A DNA stretch of 64,000 bases from Naegleria gruberi. Lineage: Eukaryota. Made by a program: the position numbers and the translations under genes. Each line of letters opens with the position of its first letter. Positions within the stretch are counted from its first letter, which is position 1. The stretch is taken from assembly GCA_000004985.1 (NCBI GenBank), contig GG738902.1; one strand, 5' to 3'. The notes under the pieces are model-generated. The model did not search any database, was not told the DNA's origin, and worked only from the letters and a program-made list of their open reading frames with translations. Below are positions 10,740-24,364 of this stretch, one piece after another.

Positions 10740-11402
10740 ATGAACAATAATCAAACTTTAATATCATCATCGGATTTGAATGGTAATTTGATGGAACAAA
10801 ATCAATTAAAGGAAGAAATTCAAAATGATTCTGCTTCGGTAATGACAGGAAATGAGGATAATATGGATACAAATGATGATGGAGCTGTGGAAATTGAATC
10901 AAGTGATGACGAAGATGATGTCAATCCTTCAGAAAAGGAATACCTTTTGGTGGATCATCCTAATTTTGCCAGCTTACAAAGAGAAAAAGATCGTGTTTTA
11001 TACTTGTTGGAACTAGGAATGACTTTTATTGAATCATTAACAAAAGCCACAAGAGAAAATATGTCTGTGGATGAAGCAATTAGTGATTGTAAAGACAATA
11101 TCTCTGATTATTATGATACATTATCGGAAATTAAGACAAACATGTCTAAACTTATTTGCATGTCATCATTTCATTCGCCTCTAAATTATGAAGGATCATT
11201 GTATTCTGAAAGAAAGAGAATTGAAATTAACAACAAGAAGGCAAAAATTTTAAAATTTGAAACATCAATAGGGAAATCAGGAGCTTATAATGATGATTTT
11301 TCTTCTGTGAATGCATTCAATAATAACAATAATAATTTGGATAACATTTCTCAATCTAATATTTCCTATGGACACACTGCACAAACTCCAAACAAGATGT
11401 AA
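10740..11402 (+). CDS. Hypothetical acidic protein (220 aa)
   Basis: ATG after a long A/T run. Asp/Glu-rich. No recognised domain. Confidence 0.4.
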   Translation: MNNNQTLISSSDLNGNLMEQNQLKEEIQNDSASVMTGNEDNMDTNDDGAVEIESSDDEDDVNPSEKEYLLVDHPNFASLQREKDRVLYLLELGMTFIESLTKATRENMSVDEAISDCKDNISDYYDTLSEIKTNMSKLICMSSFHSPLNYEGSLYSERKRIEINNKKAKILKFETSIGKSGAYNDDFSSVNAFNNNNNNLDNISQSNISYGHTAQTPNKM

Positions 11403-18534: not shown

Positions 18535-19827
18535 TTATTGATCAGGTAATCTGAAATTCATTCTATCTACATAAAGCCATAACTTTCTAGGATCAATGTG
18601 TGGAGCTAGTGGACATTCGTATGGAACATTCCAAGCATTTGGAGTTGTACTACACCAAGTATTTGTTAATAGCTTGACAGTCGCAGTGTAGAGAGCTGGA
18701 CTCATTCTCAATTGTTGTTGCATTGGTAAATAGTAGAATTCAACCATGGCTCCAAAATTTCCTCCAATTTTTGCGAATTGATTTTGTGAAACTGATTTAC
18801 CATTGACACTAATTGGACAGCCTGCAAGAGTGGAATAATGACATAATTCTACAAGAAGTTGATCACAATCAGCATCTGTTACAATATTTTCCACAACTAC
18901 ATATCCAAATCTATGGAAGAAATCAATATGTCTTTGAGTGAGGAAGTGATCATTCTCTTGTAAAATCTGATCAATCACACTAACTGGATGTTCATCATCA
19001 ACAGTCAACAAATTCTGATAAGGTTGCTCATTGTAAAGACATTCACCGAGTGGGGTTAATGGTACAAGATCCTTTTCTGGTTTTAAAAATTGTTGTTCCA
19101 TTCTGAATTTAGTACCAAAATCATCTGGATGTTCAAAACGTTTTCTCTTTTCTTGCAATTGCTTGATTGTTTGATAATTGACCTTGTGAGCACAACTGTA
19201 AGCATGATAAAATACAGATCTAGGTCTATTCATATCATTGGCATCTGAATTTCTATGAGCTGTTCTATTATCAAAGAATATATAATCACCCTTCTTAATT
19301 GGAATATATTCCAATCTATCATGCTCCTTTACAATATTCCTCACATATTCCACCATTTCATCTGCACTATTCAATTGATCTAAAGTATTGTTAGCAGGTG
19401 GTGGATTCCAATTTTGTGGAATTCTTTGAACTTTCCTCACCAATTCATATAATGGTTTATCCTCCTCCTTATTAAATCTCAAATGATATGAACTAACCCA
19501 AGGAGATTTAGCTCTCATTTCACTTGCTGATCTCAATTTTAGATCCACTGCTGGAAAATACTTTTCACACACAGAGGCAAATCCAGGAATCACCTCCAAT
19601 CCACCCTCCTTCTTATGTCTATTGACACATCCATCAGTTAAACAAACCATCGATTGGAAAGGTCTAAATCTATCCAATGGACCATATGTAAAATCTGTCT
19701 TTAATTTACCCCACAAATTATATGGCCAACAATCCAAGTGAAGACCTGTTCCTGTTTGAGTCATTGTGATTTCATCTGATTCCGAGGAAGATGATGCTGT
19801 TGTGTTTTTCTTGTTTTTCGGTGGCAT
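18535..19827 (-). CDS. Phytanoyl-CoA dioxygenase (PhyH)-family Fe(II)/2OG oxygenase-like protein with its domain halves in permuted order
   Basis: ATG at 19827. Residues about 20-210 resemble the PhyH region from the HxD motif to the C-terminus (LHLD...NGxL-VIPG...KGDYIFFDNRTAHRNSDANDMNRPR). Residues about 290-430 resemble the PhyH N-terminal region (FLTQRHIDFFHRFGYVVVENIVTDADCDQL ... PHID). Confidence 0.55.
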   Translation of the reverse strand: MPPKNKKNTTASSSSESDEITMTQTGTGLHLDCWPYNLWGKLKTDFTYGPLDRFRPFQSMVCLTDGCVNRHKKEGGLEVIPGFASVCEKYFPAVDLKLRSASEMRAKSPWVSSYHLRFNKEEDKPLYELVRKVQRIPQNWNPPPANNTLDQLNSADEMVEYVRNIVKEHDRLEYIPIKKGDYIFFDNRTAHRNSDANDMNRPRSVFYHAYSCAHKVNYQTIKQLQEKRKRFEHPDDFGTKFRMEQQFLKPEKDLVPLTPLGECLYNEQPYQNLLTVDDEHPVSVIDQILQENDHFLTQRHIDFFHRFGYVVVENIVTDADCDQLLVELCHYSTLAGCPISVNGKSVSQNQFAKIGGNFGAMVEFYYLPMQQQLRMSPALYTATVKLLTNTWCSTTPNAWNVPYECPLAPHIDPRKLWLYVDRMNFRLPDQ

Positions 19828-20193
19828 TTATCTCGTGAGCAGATATTGTGTGTGAATTTTTTTTTGATTGTTGTGGATTTTCATTTTCTTTCACAGGTTA
19901 AATTGTGAAAATGAAGCAAAAAAATACTCGATTTCAAGATTGAGGTTGAAAATAGAAAAATCTTCATGAGGATGTTTGTGTTTAGTGGGTTCTCTGGAGA
20001 ATACACCTTTTTATACGGTAACACCGCATCCAAAACGAATTTGGGCTCAAAATCAACAAGAAATCAATGATAACTATTACCAGTTTAGTCTCTCAAATGA
20101 GCTCACCAAAACAGATGCTGATTGTAAATTGCACAACTTTCTCATTGTAAAGTATGCAAGATCAACCAATTAACAAAAGCCAATCAAAAAAAA

Positions 20194-21579
20194 ATGACTC
20201 AACACTTGTATGGAGATAAACCATTTTCTTCTTCCGATGAGTTGCAATCGATCAGCAGTATTAGAATTAATGACATTAGAATTGAGGAAATTAATAAATC
20301 AATGGAGGGAGAAACGATTCGCTTGATTGCAAGAGCTTCAAGAGTTGTAAAAAAGGGAAAATTATGTTTTGTTCGGTTGAGAAGAAACTCACATTCGATA
20401 CAGGCATGTTTCCTTGCAAAAAATGATCAAGAAAGGGAAATGGTTAAATATATTGGAGGAATTCCTCATGAATCAATAGTGGAAGTTGTTGGAATAATTG
20501 TTATGAGAAAGAGTAAGAGTAATGAAACTGTTTCAGAGTTGGAATTGGAAATGAAAGAGATTTATTGTTTATCAAGAGCTCAAAAATTGGATTATGAATT
20601 GGATGAATTGGAAGATATGAGGCAGAGTAGGTCCTTACATACTAAGAGATATGTCAGCTTGCGACATTCCTTTATGCATCATATTTTCAAATTGCAATCT
20701 TTAATTGGAAGAAAGTTTTGTGAATATATGTATTCGAAAGATTTTACAGAAATTCACACACCTCACATTGTTAAAAATCAAAGTGATAATAATATATCCA
20801 GTTTTACTTTTGATTATTTTGGTAATAGTGTTGAATTGACCACCTCTTCACATCTACATCAACAATTAGCTATTCATGGTGGATTGGATAGAGTATTTGA
20901 GATTTCTTGTGCATTTGAAAAGCACCATGGCTGTACGCATGTACACTTGAACGAAAAAACAACATTGAATTTTGGAATGACTATTGCCTCTCACTACCAT
21001 GAAGTAATATCTGTGGTGAAAGAGTTATTGAACTATATTATTGATGAAATATCAGAATATGAAGGATTGGAAGTAATTGCAAAGCATAACTCAAGGGGTC
21101 TAGAAAAATTAAAGAAAACAGAAATTTTGGAGCTCACATTCAAAGAAGCTGATGCCCTATTGATAGCCAATTGTTCAGAAAATGAATTTGGTGGATTTAT
21201 GGCACTTAGAGAAGTAGCAAGTTACTTTAAAGATTATACTGACATTTTGATTATTCAAAATAGTGCACATGAAGAAGTTGGTTGTTTTGAAATGCCAAGT
21301 TCAACTGGAAAGGGCTTTAACAATTTCATCATTCTTATTAGAGGAATTGTTGTTGGACGTGGATGCCAATATATTCACGATGAGGAATTGTTGAAGCATC
21401 AGGTTCGCTGTCATGCCCCTGATCTAGTATCAGCTTTGAAATATGGTGCTCAACCTTGTGGTGGATGTTCAATTGATTTAGAGTTATTCTTAATGCAATT
21501 CCTTCAATTAAGCAATGTTCGATTCACCTCTCTATTTCCAAGAGCTCCCACTATCTATGAAAATGAGCAACTACTTTAA
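20194..21579 (+). CDS. Class II aspartyl/asparaginyl-tRNA synthetase-like protein, probably catalytically inactive
   Basis: It has an OB-fold-like N-terminal region and a class II core collinear with eukaryotic AspRS (FTEIHTP..., THVHLNE matches THRHMTEF). Motif 2 fRxE is FEKH and motif 3 GxGxGxER is CGGCSIDLEL, so both invariant arginines are lost. Confidence 0.65.
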   Translation: MTQHLYGDKPFSSSDELQSISSIRINDIRIEEINKSMEGETIRLIARASRVVKKGKLCFVRLRRNSHSIQACFLAKNDQEREMVKYIGGIPHESIVEVVGIIVMRKSKSNETVSELELEMKEIYCLSRAQKLDYELDELEDMRQSRSLHTKRYVSLRHSFMHHIFKLQSLIGRKFCEYMYSKDFTEIHTPHIVKNQSDNNISSFTFDYFGNSVELTTSSHLHQQLAIHGGLDRVFEISCAFEKHHGCTHVHLNEKTTLNFGMTIASHYHEVISVVKELLNYIIDEISEYEGLEVIAKHNSRGLEKLKKTEILELTFKEADALLIANCSENEFGGFMALREVASYFKDYTDILIIQNSAHEEVGCFEMPSSTGKGFNNFIILIRGIVVGRGCQYIHDEELLKHQVRCHAPDLVSALKYGAQPCGGCSIDLELFLMQFLQLSNVRFTSLFPRAPTIYENEQLL

Positions 21580-21640: not shown

Positions 21641-24364
21641 TTACATGACTGAACACTTCTCATCATTTGACTTTTCCTTATTGTTCCTCTTCTTTTTCTT
21701 TCCTTCACTTTGATCATCAGTGTCAGATTCACTATCTTCATCATCTTTATCAGACAATGATCGAGCCAATGGTAAAATGTAATCATCAGCAGCAGAGACA
21801 CCCTTTCTCTTTTCATTGTAAGTCCATTGTAATTCACCATCTTCAATTCTGTAAGCAGAACAAATAGCAACACCCTTATCAGGCTTAACAAGAGGTGTGA
21901 AGAAAGATCTCACTACACACAATTGAGGATTACTAATAGTCTTGTCGTCTGTCTTTTTGGTTGCGAAACGTTTGCAGAATGAAATGTCAAAGCCCTTTTC
22001 AGCCTCTGACAAATCTCCACCATTTCCATGGTAACATTCATGAACCTTTTGCCATTTGACAGCACCATCCTTCAAATTAATGGCTATCAGTTGAACATCA
22101 ACACGTTGTTGAATAGTGAGGAATCTACGTTGATCAATAACTTGTCTAGAAAAGACCATTATTCTTGATTCTTCATTAGTATTCAAAAGAGGAGAAGAAA
22201 TGGAATGTTGAATATGTGAAAATTCAAACATGAATTGAGCATCCTTCTTCCATGAGAATGGTTGACTCCACTTGAGTTGGAAAGTTCCTTCTTGAACTGA
22301 TTTTTGAGATTGAACAAATTCATAGAATGAAATTGTTTTTTCGTCCTTTTGAATGGAAATGAAACCGTCCAATCTTGGAATACCTGGCTTGGTTTCGTTT
22401 GTTTGCTTTTCAACAATGATAATTCTATCATGTGAAACACCAGTCAATAATTGATCAATGTGGAGAATTCTACCAATATCTGGTTGAATAATTGCCCATT
22501 CATTCTTTTCACCAACAAGGAAGTGCCAATCAGTGATATCCTTGAACAATAAAGTCTTGGTCTTATTTTTGGTAGTGCTGTAGGAATTGGTTTGTGGAAT
22601 TTCACAAAGTTTCTTAATACTAATAATATGAGTTCTCTTTCCTTCTCTATTAACAATTCTCATTTCACCTTCAAATTCATTTACAATACAGAAAACTGGA
22701 GATTTCTTTGGTCTGAACATCATTTGTCTATCTCTTGATTGTCCAGAAGCAGAAACACTAACTGTTAAAGTGTTACCATCAAAAATATATAACTTTGGCT
22801 TTTCAATAAATCCATATGAAGTACTTCTGCTACTGCTACTATTACTTGTCTTGAAACTTTGTGTTCCAGAAGTAGTAGTGGTAATGTCACTACTTGTAAC
22901 AGGTGACAAGACAACATGTTGAGTATCGAGTGGATTTGTGAAAATGGTACTGATAGTGTGTGGAACTTGTGAATTAGTTGGAGTGGAATCATTTACACTT
23001 GGTGATAGACCAGGAATTGAAATGGTTCTTGTTCCTCTTGATTCACCAACTTGTTTAGTTTGTTCATCAGTCCAAATACTTGTCTGTTTGGAGAAATCAA
23101 TGCTCTTATCACGTACAATATTCTCACCAATTAAAACACAAATACCATCAAAGAAATCTTGTTTTCTATTATTTCCATTAACTTCAGTGAATGAAGAAAC
23201 GCAAGAAACACGTTCTCTCTTTTCATTAATCATGTGAAATTTAGTAATTGGATCATTAACAATCAAATTGACCTTTAAACCATTCTTCTTATTAAAACAA
23301 ATAACTTGTTGTGGAAGTTGAACAATGATACTATTCTCAGTTTGTGTGAAAGCATTAATAAATAAATAATTCACACGTCTACTTGATGGCAATTTCTCAT
23401 CAATTAGCTCACTCCACCTAACACACAAACCCAACAAATCAAAACAACCCAAAATGTTACCATACATGATATACACATAATGTCCATCATATAAATATAA
23501 ACAACTGTAATTTGTATATTGATAGGACAAATCAGGAGAGTCATTATAAGCTGTCAATGGATACAAATGTGTAACTTCATCTCCACACAATCCCTTAGGA
23601 ACTGGAGTTGCAGAAGTTCCAACCAAATTTGAATTATTTCCTCCTGTGGCACTACCAATAGAATTGCTAGAATTACCTCCTACATTTGGAGTAGTAGCAG
23701 TAGTATTAGTAGAAGAAGAAGTATTAGAAGAAGTATTCTTCAATGGAGTACTTGGTGAATTTGGTTGTTGAAGTTGCAATTGTTGTTGAGAAGACAAGGA
23801 TGATGAAGAATTGCTTGCTGGAAGAGAACCACCTTGTTGTAAAGCAAGTGCAGCAGTAGAGAGGACAATATTTGGTTGTTGAGATGAAGACAATTGTGAA
23901 GAGGATGAGGAAGCACTTCCACCACTTGTCTTACTGTCAGTAGTATTCAATGATTTTTGAATGACAGGTTCAGTATTTTGATATTGTGCAGGAATATGTG
24001 TATACAGAATAGTTACTCGTCTATTTTCTCTATTATAAGAATTTGATGTTGTTGTTGTATTAGAATTTGTATTTCCATAATGTCTAGAATAAATAGTTTC
24101 AAAAACAGACTTTCTAATAATTTCACGATCATTAAAATCAAATATACGTGCTCCTGTTGATGCGTCAAATAGAATATTATTGAATAAACAGCAACGATTT
24201 GGTGTGTGAAGAACTTGATATTGGAAACGCAAAGATTCCAAACAAAATGATGAAGAAACATGTAAAAGTGAATTGTTAATTTCATCATAGGTTAGGAATG
24301 GGAAAATATGTGGAAGGAGAAGTGAGAGTGCTTCTCCTTTATTGTTGGTGGTGGAAGAAGACAT
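21641..24364 (-). CDS. Hypothetical protein (907 aa) with Ser/Gln/Asn low-complexity tracts and an acidic/basic C-terminal tail
   Basis: ATG at 24364. Long clean ORF. No recognised catalytic motifs. Confidence 0.5.
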   Translation of the reverse strand: MSSSTTNNKGEALSLLLPHIFPFLTYDEINNSLLHVSSSFCLESLRFQYQVLHTPNRCCLFNNILFDASTGARIFDFNDREIIRKSVFETIYSRHYGNTNSNTTTTSNSYNRENRRVTILYTHIPAQYQNTEPVIQKSLNTTDSKTSGGSASSSSSQLSSSQQPNIVLSTAALALQQGGSLPASNSSSSLSSQQQLQLQQPNSPSTPLKNTSSNTSSSTNTTATTPNVGGNSSNSIGSATGGNNSNLVGTSATPVPKGLCGDEVTHLYPLTAYNDSPDLSYQYTNYSCLYLYDGHYVYIMYGNILGCFDLLGLCVRWSELIDEKLPSSRRVNYLFINAFTQTENSIIVQLPQQVICFNKKNGLKVNLIVNDPITKFHMINEKRERVSCVSSFTEVNGNNRKQDFFDGICVLIGENIVRDKSIDFSKQTSIWTDEQTKQVGESRGTRTISIPGLSPSVNDSTPTNSQVPHTISTIFTNPLDTQHVVLSPVTSSDITTTTSGTQSFKTSNSSSSRSTSYGFIEKPKLYIFDGNTLTVSVSASGQSRDRQMMFRPKKSPVFCIVNEFEGEMRIVNREGKRTHIISIKKLCEIPQTNSYSTTKNKTKTLLFKDITDWHFLVGEKNEWAIIQPDIGRILHIDQLLTGVSHDRIIIVEKQTNETKPGIPRLDGFISIQKDEKTISFYEFVQSQKSVQEGTFQLKWSQPFSWKKDAQFMFEFSHIQHSISSPLLNTNEESRIMVFSRQVIDQRRFLTIQQRVDVQLIAINLKDGAVKWQKVHECYHGNGGDLSEAEKGFDISFCKRFATKKTDDKTISNPQLCVVRSFFTPLVKPDKGVAICSAYRIEDGELQWTYNEKRKGVSAADDYILPLARSLSDKDDEDSESDTDDQSEGKKKKRNNKEKSNDEKCSVM

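What the first reader, a model, noticed from the sequence alone, without database searches (positions are those of the whole stretch)
20194..21579. AspRS/AsnRS paralog missing both invariant class-II arginines, a probable pseudo-synthetase
The 461-aa product is collinear with eukaryotic aspartyl-tRNA synthetase, with an OB-fold then a class II core. Three key sites are changed:
- Motif 2 (F-R-x-E), where the Arg contacts the ATP alpha-phosphate, reads F-E-K-H.
- Motif 3 (GxGxGxER) reads CGGCSIDLEL.
- The QSPQ aspartate-recognition element reads TSSH.

The overall scaffold is preserved, which argues for a repurposed aaRS-like protein rather than a decaying pseudogene.
Basis: partly seen in the sequence, partly recalled or inferred. 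Interest (0 to 1): 0.7.

Follow-up and report, generated by a model that had tools for sequence, protein, structure and literature searches.

The report
Dead aspartyl-tRNA synthetase paralog in Naegleria
This Naegleria gruberi gene is a full-length but catalytically gutted copy of aspartyl-tRNA synthetase that selection has kept intact beside a normal copy, so the database label "aspartyl-tRNA synthetase" is wrong and its real, non-enzymatic job is unknown.

Summary
ORF 20194-21579 (+) encodes 461 aa, identical to N. gruberi XP_002671814.1, which is annotated as aspartyl-tRNA synthetase. It has the OB-fold plus class II core of eukaryotic AspRS (predicted fold TM 0.9 to yeast AspRS).

Nearly every substrate-contacting residue is replaced. 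In yeast numbering: motif 2 R325->E and E327->H; QSPQ->TSSH; K306->Q; R485->Y; D471->I; E478->V; motif 3 R531->L. All 99 comparison AspRSs keep these residues.

A canonical AspRS (XP_002674789.1, 562 aa) lies on another scaffold, so this is not the working enzyme.

It is not a decaying pseudogene:
- It has 0 stops, against 26-51 in the other five frames.
- None of 300 neutral-decay simulations stayed open at this divergence.

N. lovaniensis carries a very diverged ortholog (31% identity) with significantly many shared derived residues. Both copies lack the aspartate site. Only the N. gruberi copy has also lost the ATP-binding arginines.

Motif 1 (dimer interface) and the OB-fold evolve at canonical rates. 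The hinge and N-terminal tRNA-binding extension are deleted.

Best reading: a fast-evolving, selectively retained pseudo-synthetase acting non-catalytically, probably as a dimer. Similar degenerate AspRS copies occur in dictyostelids, ciliates, a fungus and a rotifer. Function untested.

The parts
20194..21579 (+). Complete intronless CDS (461 aa plus stop) of the AspRS-like pseudo-synthetase. Equals XP_002671814.1 / EFC39070.1 / UniProt D2VVN2.
   Evidence: ORF list. 100% identity to the NCBI protein. 0 stops against 26-51 in the other frames.
19828..20193 (.). 366-bp intergenic region shared with the divergently transcribed upstream gene (18535-19827, minus strand). Presumed promoter and 5' UTR, with an A-rich context before the ATG.
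   Evidence: Sequence read and ORF map. Function inferred only.
20311..20574 (+). OB-fold (anticodon-binding-type) domain, residues 40-127. Keeps F59, Q70 and E117 (yeast F127, Q138, E188). Has V52 and L74 where yeast has R119 and K142. Basic, pI 9.4, like canonical OB domains.
   Evidence: Pfam OB match. Yeast numbering validated on the 1asy alignment. Identity ratio 1.08 and charge. AF2 pLDDT 96-98.
20575..20664 (+). Truncated hinge, residues 128-157. 31 residues are deleted relative to the N. gruberi canonical enzyme. The positions of human Asp158 and Asn175 (D-stem contacts) fall in the deleted segments.
   Evidence: Human alignment combined with PMC3824080.
20665..20781 (+). Motif 1 helix and strand, residues 158-196. 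Core reads KDFTEIHTPH with the class II invariant Pro190. This is the best-preserved block: 46% identical to the canonical copy, the same as canonical enzymes show to distant eukaryotes.
20776..20865 (+). Degenerate flipping loop (SEGG -> SDNN, residues 197-200) and aspartate-recognition element (LAQSPQLYKQ -> LTTSSHLHQQ, residues 215-224).
   Evidence: Residue roles from PvAspRS structures (PMC12262901). The QSPQ->AAPA mutant is a catalytic null (PMC7334510).
20887..20982 (+). Degenerate motif 2, residues 232-263. FRAE -> FEKH (yeast R325->E242, E327->H244). Also F338->K255, D342->N259 and E344->G261. H334 is kept as H251.
21277..21381 (+). Degenerate beta-strands of the Asp/Mg/ATP site, residues 362-396. 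RPFYTMP -> VGCFEMP. NSYD..RGEEI.SGAQRIHD -> NNFI..RGIVVGRGCQYIHD (yeast D471->I379, E478->V386, R485->Y393).
21445..21513 (+). Degenerate motif 3, residues 418-440. GAxPHAGxGxGLER -> GAQPCGGCSIDLEL (yeast R531->L431). G418 and A419 (human interface residues Gly462 and Ala463) are retained.
   Evidence: PMC3824080.
21514..21576 (+). C-terminal segment NVRFTSLFPRAP (conserved class IIb tail, FPR kept) followed by a divergent 9-residue end.

Best explanation
The gene encodes a paralog of the Naegleria cytosolic (eukaryote-type, class IIb) aspartyl-tRNA synthetase. It has lost the ability to bind aspartate, Mg-ATP and the tRNA acceptor end. It therefore cannot make aspartyl-adenylate or charge tRNA, and the canonical AspRS encoded elsewhere in the genome does that work.

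**Origin (inferred from shared derived residues).** The duplication predates the split of the N. gruberi and N. lovaniensis lineages. The aspartate pocket was already destroyed in their common ancestor: QSPQ, K306, R485, E281, D471 and E478 in yeast numbering. The N. gruberi lineage then also lost the ATP-binding motif 2 and motif 3 arginines.

**Constraint (shown).** The protein has evolved about 8-9 times faster than the canonical enzyme, yet it stays an intact, confidently foldable OB-fold plus class II core.

**Likely mode of action (inferred, not shown).** It works without catalysis as a dimeric scaffold. The dimer-forming motif 1 and the interface residues are kept at canonical rates, so it should form homodimers or heterodimers with canonical AspRS. 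The basic OB-fold may still bind RNA or another partner. The closest precedent is SLIMP, the active-site-ablated SerRS paralog that pairs with mitochondrial SerRS.
For: **Catalytic death**
- All three reader-listed sites, plus K306, R485, D471, E478, E281, F338, D342 and E344 equivalents, are replaced.
- 99 of 99 other AspRSs keep them.
- Crystallography assigns these residues to Asp-AMP and Mg binding (PMC12262901).
- QSPQ->AAPA is a null in vivo (PMC7334510).
- The protein fails the NCBIfam AspRS equivalog cut-offs (188.5 bits against 368.4; 193.2 against 353), while the canonical N. gruberi copy passes.

**Redundancy**
- A canonical AspRS, XP_002674789.1, is present in the genome.

**Fold retained**
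- AF2 gives pLDDT 89.2 and pTM 0.90.
- Foldseek TM-score is 0.89-0.90 to yeast AspRS structures 1eov and 1asy.

**Selection**
- 0 stops in 461 codons, against 26-51 in the other frames. The chance of an open frame from composition alone is about 8e-18.
- In a neutral-decay simulation from the parental CDS down to 36% identity, 0 of 300 runs were stop-free, with a mean of 22 stops.

**Ortholog in N. lovaniensis (XP_044545974.1)**
- 25 of 118 doubly-changed sites changed to the same residue, against 6.8 +/- 2.5 expected (0 of 20,000 permutations reached 25).
- Shared derived states include SEGG->xxNN and LAQSPQ->LT(T/S)S(S/A).
- The same sites stay ancestral in both copies (odds ratio 3.6, P = 9e-8).
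- pS = 0.74 (saturated) against pN = 0.48.

**Regional pattern**
- OB-fold, motif 1 and residues 397-417 are conserved as well as in canonical enzymes (identity ratios 0.95-1.08).
- Active-site blocks have ratios of 0.41-0.68.
- The hinge has a ratio of 0.26 and has lost 31 residues.
- Interface residues S127, G418 and A419 (human Ser146, Gly462, Ala463) are kept (PMC3824080).

**Precedent**
- SLIMP/SerRS2alpha heterodimer (PMC10570016).
Against: **No expression evidence**
- No expression or proteomic evidence could be obtained. Accession searches found nothing.

**Few relatives**
- The protein is a singleton at 90% and 50% identity among about 15 billion proteins.
- Two metagenome scans found no closer relative.

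**Doubts about the ortholog**
- The only ortholog carries a 1-nt frameshift that the annotation hides inside an 83-nt 'intron'. This could mean the gene is dispensable in that lineage, or it could be an assembly error.
- Phylogenetic placement is unresolved by neighbour-joining. The Ngp+Nlp grouping (Ngp = this N. gruberi paralog, Nlp = the N. lovaniensis copy) has only 25% bootstrap support.
- No synteny is visible within +/-10 kb.

**Weak case for tRNA binding**
- The N-terminal extension, the hinge D-stem contacts, the motif 2 loop and the flipping loop are gone.
- The two orthologs do not keep the same anticodon-contact residues. Q70 is Leu in N. lovaniensis, and R119 is Val in N. gruberi.

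**Model and assay limits**
- High AF2 confidence may partly reflect an alignment made of canonical AspRSs.
- Dimerisation and any partner are inferred only.
Confidence: 0.65

Rival explanations
1. Non-functional relic. The duplicated AspRS gene is on its way to loss, and the open frame is a leftover with no current function.
For: - Every catalytic element is destroyed.
- It evolves very fast, about 8.6 times the canonical distance.
- No orthologs were found outside one other Naegleria species.
- The N. lovaniensis copy has a frameshift.
- No expression data were found.
Against: - 461 stop-free codons in a 33% GC genome where the other frames carry 26-51 stops.
- 0 of 300 neutral simulations stay open. 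In those runs the first stop typically appears while identity is still about 97%.
- Synonymous sites between the two Naegleria copies are saturated, yet 31% amino-acid identity and the same conserved site set persist.
- The fold core, motif 1 and OB-fold are kept at canonical rates.
- Apart from one nucleotide, the N. lovaniensis ORF is also open over 594 codons.
Confidence: 0.12
2. Neo-functionalised ligand-binding protein or enzyme. The former adenylate pocket was remodelled to bind a different small molecule or metal rather than simply inactivated.
For: - The protein is enriched in His (23 of 461) and Cys (12 of 461), against 10 and 6 of 562 in the canonical copy.
- Several of these sit at former active-site positions: H220, H244, H245, C239, C247, C364, C391, C422, with H251 and H395 retained.
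- The N. lovaniensis ortholog still has the motif 2 and motif 3 arginines, so the ancestral paralog may have bound ATP with a changed second substrate.
Against: - The remodelled residues are not conserved between the two orthologs. Of 36 canonical-invariant columns lost in both, most differ between them.
- No match to any other enzyme family: Pfam and NCBIfam hits are class IIb aaRS families only.
- In N. gruberi the ATP-binding arginines, the Mg ligands and the motif 3 glycines are all gone.
Confidence: 0.15
3. Still a working synthetase. It could be a second AspRS, for example an organellar one like the eukaryote-type mitochondrial AspRS2 of kinetoplastids and diplonemids, or it could have another amino-acid specificity, using an unconventional active site.
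For: - It is annotated as aspartyl-tRNA synthetase.
- Related Discoba carry a second, active, eukaryote-type AspRS for mitochondria (PMC12699882; PMC3532385).
- The full OB plus core architecture is kept.
Against: - Both class II invariant arginines, the Mg-binding acidic residues, the adenine-stacking Phe, QSPQ/K/R and the flipping-loop Glu are all replaced, several with charge reversal.
- No class II enzyme is known to work without the motif 2 Arg (established knowledge of class II aaRS catalysis).
- The N-terminus is acidic and short, with no presequence-like stretch.
- The Bodo AspRS2-like protein keeps R/SPQ/R/R and is no closer to this protein than canonical AspRS is.
Confidence: 0.04

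Closest known systems
Eukaryotic cytosolic aspartyl-tRNA synthetase (yeast Dps1 / human DARS1; PDB 1ASZ, 1EOV, 4J15), specifically the N. gruberi canonical enzyme XP_002674789.1
   Same: - Same domain order: OB-fold, hinge, class II core.
- Same predicted fold (TM 0.89-0.90).
- Motif 1 with the invariant Pro, and the conserved FPR tail.
- 34-36% identity to the N. gruberi canonical copy, the highest of all canonical enzymes compared.
   Different: - All Asp-, ATP-, Mg- and acceptor-end-contacting residues are replaced.
- The N-terminal Lys-rich extension (about 67-100 aa) is absent.
- 31 hinge residues are deleted.
- It fails the NCBIfam equivalog cut-off.
- It evolves about 8.6 times faster.
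[quoted passage not shown]
   Same: - A class II aaRS paralog whose active-site pocket is ablated.
- It keeps the overall scaffold and coexists with a catalytically competent paralog (PMC10570016).
   Different: - SLIMP derives from SerRS, is mitochondrial and is widespread in animals.
- It is shown to heterodimerise and to supply the tRNA-binding coiled-coil in trans.
- Here the active partner is a complete AspRS, no heterodimer has been shown, and tRNA in AspRS mostly binds one subunit.
HisZ and the GCN2 HisRS-like domain (catalytically inactive HisRS paralogs)
   Same: Class II cores that no longer aminoacylate and act as regulatory or sensor modules (PMC9437257; titles).
   Different: - Different parent synthetase.
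- Both have defined partners (HisG; the GCN2 kinase) and still bind histidine or uncharged tRNA.
- No partner or ligand is known here.
Asparagine synthetase A / archaeal AS-AR, and fungal ErdS (the AspRS paralogs listed in the 2022 review PMC9437257)
   Same: They descend from AspRS-type class IIb cores by duplication.
   Different: - Both are enzymes that keep the Asp and ATP sites.
- AsnA lacks the OB-fold, and ErdS is an active AspRS fused to DUF2156.
- The target keeps the OB-fold and lacks the active site. It scores 44.7 bits on the AsnA model against a cut-off of 309.
Other degenerate eukaryote-type AspRS copies found here: Dictyostelium discoideum KAM9971578.1, Acytostelium XP_012753396.1, Heterostelium XP_020432418.1, Tetrahymena XP_001011634.1, Paramecium XP_001437523.1, Podila humilis KAG0343955.1, Adineta vaga UJR10555.1
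   Same: - Full-length AspRS-like proteins that have lost SEGG, QSPQ, FRAE, RPFYTMP and/or the D..RGEE residues.
- Some share the same P->S and Y->H changes.
- All are labelled AspRS or hypothetical.
   Different: - Most keep the motif 3 Arg and several keep the motif 2 Arg.
- The Podila and Adineta copies branch with their own lineages, so at least some arose independently.
- None is closer to the target than canonical AspRS is.

Membership tests
Aspartate-tRNA ligase, eukaryotic/archaeal type (class IIb, EC 6.1.1.12) | N-terminal OB-fold anticodon-binding domain followed by a class II catalytic core | tested here: met
   Pfam PF00152 at 101.8 bits. PF01336 at 24 bits, just under its cut-off. 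AF2 model plus Foldseek TM 0.89-0.90 to 1eov and 1asy.
Aspartate-tRNA ligase, eukaryotic/archaeal type (class IIb, EC 6.1.1.12) | Motif 1 with the invariant proline (yeast P273), forming the dimer interface | tested here: met
   KDFTEIHTPH with P190 aligned to yeast P273.
Aspartate-tRNA ligase, eukaryotic/archaeal type (class IIb, EC 6.1.1.12) | Motif 2 fRxE with the invariant Arg (yeast R325), plus E327 and F338 | tested here: not met
   E242, H244 and K255 occupy these positions. 99 of 99 comparison AspRSs have R and 97 of 99 have E.
Aspartate-tRNA ligase, eukaryotic/archaeal type (class IIb, EC 6.1.1.12) | Motif 3 GxGxGxER with the invariant Arg (yeast R531) | tested here: not met
   Reads G424-C-S426-I-D428-L-E430-L431. 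All 99 comparison sequences have R.
Aspartate-tRNA ligase, eukaryotic/archaeal type (class IIb, EC 6.1.1.12) | Aspartate recognition set: QSPQ, K306, R485, D342 and flipping-loop E281 | tested here: not met
   The corresponding residues are TSSH, Q223, Y393, N259 and D198. Roles from PMC12262901. The QSPQ mutant is a null (PMC7334510).
Aspartate-tRNA ligase, eukaryotic/archaeal type (class IIb, EC 6.1.1.12) | Mg2+/ATP-binding acidic residues (yeast D471, E478) | tested here: not met
   I379 and V386 occupy these positions.
Aspartate-tRNA ligase, eukaryotic/archaeal type (class IIb, EC 6.1.1.12) | Score above NCBIfam equivalog cut-offs (TIGR00458 at 368.4 bits; NF003483 at 353 bits) | tested here: not met
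   188.5 and 193.2 bits. The canonical N. gruberi copy scores 446.9 and 404.6.
Aspartate-tRNA ligase, eukaryotic/archaeal type (class IIb, EC 6.1.1.12) | Asp-dependent ATP-PPi exchange and tRNA(Asp) aminoacylation | not testable with these tools
   Needs a biochemical assay.
Pfam tRNA-synt_2 superfamily (class IIb D/K/N cores, homology only) | Score above the Pfam gathering threshold (25 bits) over the whole domain | tested here: met
   101.8 bits over profile positions 6-306 of 308. The canonical copy scores 269.9 bits.
Asparagine synthetase A (AsnA / AS-AR) | Class II core without the OB-fold, with Asp and ATP site residues retained | tested here: not met
   The OB-fold is present and the site residues are lost. 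Best AsnA model scores 44.7 bits against a cut-off of 309.
Pseudo-synthetases (inactive aaRS paralogs such as SLIMP and HisZ) | Active-site ablation on a retained aaRS scaffold, with an active paralog in the same genome | tested here: met
Pseudo-synthetases (inactive aaRS paralogs such as SLIMP and HisZ) | Maintained by purifying selection (not a pseudogene) | tested here: met
   Open frame against a neutral simulation. Ortholog with saturated pS but pN of 0.48 and correlated site conservation. Caveat: the N. lovaniensis copy has a 1-nt frameshift.
Pseudo-synthetases (inactive aaRS paralogs such as SLIMP and HisZ) | Defined non-catalytic role or partner (for example a heterodimer with the active enzyme) | not testable with these tools
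   Only indirect evidence: motif 1 and interface residues are conserved. No multimer prediction or interaction data.
Kinetoplastid-type AspRS2 (second, mitochondrial, eukaryote-type AspRS) | Catalytic residues retained, organellar targeting, and closer relation to AspRS2 than to the cytosolic enzyme | tested here: not met
   Catalytic residues are lost. The N-terminus is short and acidic. The Bodo AspRS2-like P0311 scores lower (E = 6e-42) than the Naegleria-type canonical representative (E = 4e-52).

The most novel reading that the evidence does not exclude
Catalytically dead copies of cytosolic AspRS may be a recurrent, so far undescribed class of eukaryotic pseudoenzyme. They appear in Naegleria, dictyostelids, ciliates, a mortierellomycete fungus and a bdelloid rotifer. 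In this reading they are repeatedly retained because a dead subunit that still dimerises gives a selectable function. One possibility is a SLIMP-like heterodimer that tunes AspRS activity or stability. Another is an OB-fold RNA-binding module. The Naegleria pair would show stepwise ablation: the Asp site first, then the ATP site.
Probability: 0.2. Interest if true: 0.7.

Novelty: new member of a known kind. Interest (0 to 1): 0.45.

Why it matters
**Annotation.** Public databases label this protein, and at least seven similar ones in other eukaryotes, as aspartyl-tRNA synthetase or leave them unnamed. Counting them as synthetases inflates aaRS complements and can mislead drug-target or metabolic reconstructions in Naegleria, whose relative N. 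fowleri is a lethal pathogen.

**Biology.** Inactive aaRS paralogs with real functions are known for HisRS (HisZ, GCN2) and SerRS (SLIMP). The 2022 review of aaRS duplicates lists only catalytic AspRS paralogs: AsnA/AS-AR and ErdS. A selectively maintained, full-length, dead AspRS would extend the pseudo-synthetase concept to class IIb.

**A natural series.** The two Naegleria orthologs show stepwise active-site loss on a conserved dimer scaffold.

**Limits.** The function is unknown, the gene is confined to a few species, and expression is unverified. It is a solid lead rather than a surprise.

Tried and rejected
**Giant-virus origin of the window**
- Dense long ORFs and 33% GC suggested this. 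It was rejected when the protein matched N. gruberi exactly.

**Searches for close orthologs, to allow dN/dS**
- The word-indexed search found nothing above 33% identity.
- The exhaustive HMMER search of 1.84 billion representatives also found nothing closer.
- A single-protein scan of JGI metagenomes gave 0 relatives.
- A profile scan returned only canonical AspRSs at 37% identity or less.

**Phylogenetic placement**
- Neighbour-joining with bootstrap was unresolved because of the long branch. The sister group changes between replicates.
- Exclusive-sharing counts were uninformative.
- Orthology with N. lovaniensis therefore rests on shared derived residues.

**Synteny**
- No common neighbours were found within +/-10 kb of the N. 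gruberi and N. lovaniensis loci.

**Expression evidence**
- Accession searches of the paper library returned nothing.
- A search of the supplements of an N. gruberi proteomics paper also returned nothing, even for the canonical enzyme, so this is uninformative.

**Codon-level dN/dS between the two Naegleria copies**
- Synonymous sites are saturated (pS = 0.74). Only the qualitative contrast with pN is usable.

**Other negatives**
- There is no nearby tRNA gene; the window has none.
- The His/Cys metal-site idea could not be tested, because model coordinates are not exposed and the residues are not conserved in the ortholog.
- The AsnA, PoxA/GenX and LysRS readings were rejected on scores and architecture.
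Full report
**1. What is at the coordinates**

- The window is AT-rich (32-36% GC) and densely packed with long, mostly intronless ORFs on both strands.
- The ORF at 20194..21579 (+) encodes 461 aa.
- It is 100% identical to NCBI XP_002671814.1 / EFC39070.1 / UniProt D2VVN2, annotated 'aspartyl-tRNA synthetase [Naegleria gruberi strain NEG-M]', on a 305,921-bp scaffold. The window is therefore nuclear DNA of the heterolobosean amoeboflagellate N. gruberi.
- Neighbouring genes are unrelated housekeeping-type genes: Got1/Sft2, OsmC, an Arf-like GTPase, a Gig2/PhyH-like dioxygenase transcribed divergently from a 366-bp spacer, a 907-aa low-complexity protein converging 62 bp downstream, an M16 peptidase, an epimerase and a TLDc protein.
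- The window has no tRNA gene.
- GC (0.335) and GC3 (0.26) of the gene are typical of its neighbours.

**2.

- Pfam finds tRNA-synt_2 (E = 4.9e-29) and a just-sub-threshold OB-fold.
- The best solved relatives are eukaryotic AspRSs (E = 1e-42 to 5e-50). AsnRS and LysRS are far weaker.
- I checked my recollection of yeast AspRS numbering against the printed alignment to chain 1asy_A (chain position plus 67). R119, F127, Q138, K142, E188, P273, E281, Q300-Q303, K306, R325, E327, H334, F338, D342, E344, D471, E478, R485 and R531 all fall on the expected letters.

Residue mapping onto the target (yeast AspRS -> target):

| Element | Yeast | Target |
|---|---|---|
| Motif 2 | R325 | E242 |
| Motif 2 | E327 | H244 |
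| Motif 2 region | F338 | K255 |
| Motif 2 region | D342 | N259 |
| Motif 2 region | E344 | G261 |
| Asp recognition | Q300-S-P-Q303 | T217-S-S-H220 |
| Asp recognition | K306 | Q223 |
| Flipping loop | E281 | D198 (SEGG -> SDNN) |
| Mg/ATP site | D471 | I379 |
| Mg/ATP site | E478 | V386 |
| Asp recognition | R485 | Y393 |
| Motif 3 | R531 | L431 |

- The motif 3 glycines are also replaced (S426 and D428).
- Crystal structures of Plasmodium AspRS with Asp-AMP analogues assign exactly these residues to ligand contacts. R396/E398 correspond to R325/E327, Q374/K377/R561 to Q303/K306/R485, E352 to the SEGG Glu, and E554 to the Mg ligand (PMC12262901).
- A QSPQ->AAPA mutant of an AspRS domain is a catalytic null in yeast (PMC7334510).
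- In a 100-sequence alignment, all 99 other eukaryotic or archaeal-type AspRSs keep R, QSPQ, K, D, E, R and R. The target differs at 22 of 30 catalytic or near-catalytic positions, and at 42 of the 84 columns that are at least 90% conserved.

**3. It is not the organism's AspRS**

- Searching outward from the best canonical hit reached the Naegleria canonical enzymes.
- N. gruberi has XP_002674789.1 / D2VME1, 562 aa, on a different 381,539-bp scaffold, 84% identical to the N. fowleri and N. lovaniensis enzymes and with every motif intact.
- That protein passes NCBIfam's AspRS equivalog cut-offs (446.9 against 368.4; 404.6 against 353). The target scores 188.5 and 193.2 and fails.

**4. It is not a decaying pseudogene**

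- The reading frame has 0 stops in 461 codons, whereas the five other frames of the same stretch have 26-51. From composition, the chance of an open frame is about 8e-18, and none of 20,000 shuffles was open.
- I ran a more relevant null. I started from the parental-type CDS, taken from an environmental contig whose product is 99.8% identical to the N. gruberi canonical enzyme. I applied neutral substitutions with the window's base composition until amino-acid identity fell to the observed 36%.
- This needed about 0.49 substitutions per nucleotide. It left a mean of 22 stops (minimum 11), and 0 of 300 runs were open. The first stop typically appeared while identity was still 97%.
- The AlphaFold2 model is confident (pLDDT 89.2, pTM 0.90) and superposes on yeast AspRS with TM 0.89-0.90. 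The caveat is that the input alignment consisted of canonical enzymes.

**5. An ortholog in N. lovaniensis, and the order of losses**

- The exhaustive HMMER search of 1.84 billion cluster representatives showed no protein closer than about 35% identity.
- One hit, P0390, turned out to be N. lovaniensis XP_044545974.1 (C9374_007860). This is a second, divergent AspRS-like protein distinct from that species' canonical enzyme.
- Its genomic locus (L005) shows that the annotated 83-nt GT-AG 'intron' bridges a 1-nt frameshift. Read through, the 'intron' encodes the homologs of the flipping loop and QSPQ segment. Adding one T in a TATTC run restores a 594-codon open frame.
- In that restored protein the flipping loop reads QGSNN (N. 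gruberi QSDNN, canonical SEGGA). The QSPQ element reads LTSSARSYLQ (N. gruberi LTTSSHLHQQ, canonical LAQSPQLYKQ).
- I examined 315 sites where the four vahlkampfiid canonical enzymes agree:
  - Both paralogs have changed at 118 sites.
  - At 25 of those they changed to the same residue, against 6.8 +/- 2.5 expected (none of 20,000 permutations reached 25).
  - The sites that remain ancestral coincide (odds ratio 3.6, P = 9e-8).
- I therefore regard the two as orthologs descending from one duplication before the N. gruberi / N. lovaniensis split.
- Neighbour-joining support is weak (25%) and there is no local synteny.
- Between the two copies, synonymous sites are saturated (pS = 0.74) while pN is 0.48. 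Identity is 31%, against 84% for the canonical pair, so the protein distance is about 8.6 times larger. The gene is fast-evolving but constrained in both lineages for most of that time.
- Both orthologs lack the aspartate and Mg site: E281, Q300, P302, Q303, K306, E327, RPFYT, D471, E478 and R485 equivalents.
- N. lovaniensis still has the motif 2 Arg, R250, F255, D259, E261, H422, G428 and the motif 3 Arg. N. gruberi has lost all of these.
- The simplest history is that the Asp site was ablated first, and the ATP site was ablated later in the N. gruberi lineage.

**6. What is kept, and what that suggests**

Identity of the paralog to the N. gruberi canonical enzyme, relative to that enzyme's identity to distant eukaryotic AspRSs:

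| Region | Identity ratio |
|---|---|
| OB-fold | 1.08 |
| Motif 1 helix and strand | 0.99 |
| Residues 397-417 | 0.95 |
| Active-site blocks | 0.41-0.68 |
| Hinge (31 residues deleted) | 0.26 |

- The N-terminal Lys-rich extension is absent.
- Motif 1 (KDFTEIHTPH) keeps the invariant proline.
- The three residues that the human DARS1 structure paper highlights at the inter-subunit interface (Ser146, Gly462, Ala463) are S127, G418 and A419 here (PMC3824080).
- The same paper's D-stem contacts (Asp158, Asn175) fall in segments deleted from the target.
- The OB-fold is as basic as canonical ones (pI 9.4). It keeps F59, Q70 and E117 (yeast F127, Q138, E188) but not R119 or K142. The N. lovaniensis ortholog keeps R119, F127 and E188 but not Q138. 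Specific anticodon recognition is therefore doubtful.
- My inference is a non-catalytic, probably dimeric scaffold, either a homodimer or a heterodimer with canonical AspRS, possibly with residual RNA binding through the OB-fold.
- The closest mechanistic precedent is SLIMP, an active-site-ablated SerRS paralog that heterodimerises with SerRS2alpha (PMC10570016).
- None of this was testable here.

**7. Comparison with what is known**

- The 2022 review of aaRS duplications lists AsnA/AS-AR and ErdS as the AspRS paralogs, and both are enzymes (PMC9437257).
- Text searches for AspRS-like or AspRS paralog pseudo-enzymes found nothing relevant.
- Kinetoplastids and diplonemids have a second, active, eukaryote-type AspRS for mitochondria. 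The target lacks catalytic residues and a presequence, and is no closer to the Bodo copy than to canonical enzymes.
- Unexpectedly, about 13 of the top 150 HMMER representatives are also degenerate at catalytic positions.
- The named ones come from Dictyostelium discoideum, Acytostelium subglobosum, Heterostelium album, Tetrahymena, Paramecium, Podila humilis, Adineta vaga and (mildly) Bodo saltans.
- The Acytostelium copy lies two locus tags from the canonical gene. Canonical copies were also recovered from Acytostelium and Heterostelium.
- In a neighbour-joining tree the Podila and Adineta copies sit with fungi and animals, so at least some arose independently. The clustering of the rest may be long-branch attraction.

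**8. Verdict**

- The pseudo-synthetase interpretation is supported and sharpened: a canonical copy exists, purifying selection is evident, an ortholog exists, and the losses were stepwise.
- The phenomenon of inactive aaRS paralogs is known. An AspRS-derived one appears undescribed in the literature searched.
- Function and expression remain open.
- Interest is moderate.

Noticed in passing
L005:10001-11784 (N. lovaniensis PYSW02000031.1; frameshift near L005:10916-10923, annotated intron about 10899-10981): The N. lovaniensis ortholog (XP_044545974.1) is annotated with an 83-nt GT-AG intron. That intron encodes the homologs of the flipping loop and QSPQ segment and hides a 1-nt frameshift. 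Inserting one T restores a 594-codon ORF. This could be a real frameshift, an assembly error or genuine intronisation.
   Followed up: partly
Proteins P0331, P0393, P0324, P0334, P0303, P0298, P0302, P0311: Degenerate eukaryote-type AspRS copies occur in Dictyostelium, Acytostelium, Heterostelium, Tetrahymena, Paramecium, Podila humilis, Adineta vaga and Bodo saltans. They have lost SEGG, QSPQ, FRAE or RGEE residues. All are labelled AspRS or hypothetical.
   Followed up: partly
Acytostelium subglobosum locus tags SAMD00019534_068300 (degenerate, P0393) and _068320 (canonical, P0251): The degenerate and canonical AspRS genes are only two locus tags apart on the same scaffold. This suggests a local duplication in that lineage.
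   Followed up: no
window 20194-21579 (protein composition): The paralog has 23 His and 12 Cys in 461 aa, against 10 and 6 in the 562-aa canonical enzyme. Several sit at former active-site positions: H220, H244, H245, C239, C247, C364, C391 and C422. They are not conserved in the N. lovaniensis ortholog.
   Followed up: partly
P0288 (N. gruberi canonical AspRS), alignment A1 columns about 135-145: The canonical N. gruberi AspRS has Thr (HNVTGKGK) at the position of yeast R119. This U35-contacting Arg is conserved in 95% of AspRSs, and N. fowleri and N. lovaniensis have Arg there.
   Followed up: no
L004 (ENA ERZ929261, contig from run ERR1078381): An environmental metagenome contig encodes an AspRS 99.8% identical to the N. 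gruberi canonical enzyme. An N. gruberi-like amoeba is therefore present in that sample. No copy of the paralog was recovered from metagenomes.
   Followed up: no
window 21641-24364 (-): A 907-aa ORF rich in Ser/Thr/Asn/Gln low-complexity runs has no Pfam match. It converges on the target gene, with only 61 bp between the two stop codons.
   Followed up: no
window 18535-19827 (-): The upstream, divergently transcribed gene encodes a 430-aa protein with Gig2-like and weak PhyH (2-oxoglutarate dioxygenase-type) matches. It shares a 366-bp spacer with the target.
   Followed up: no
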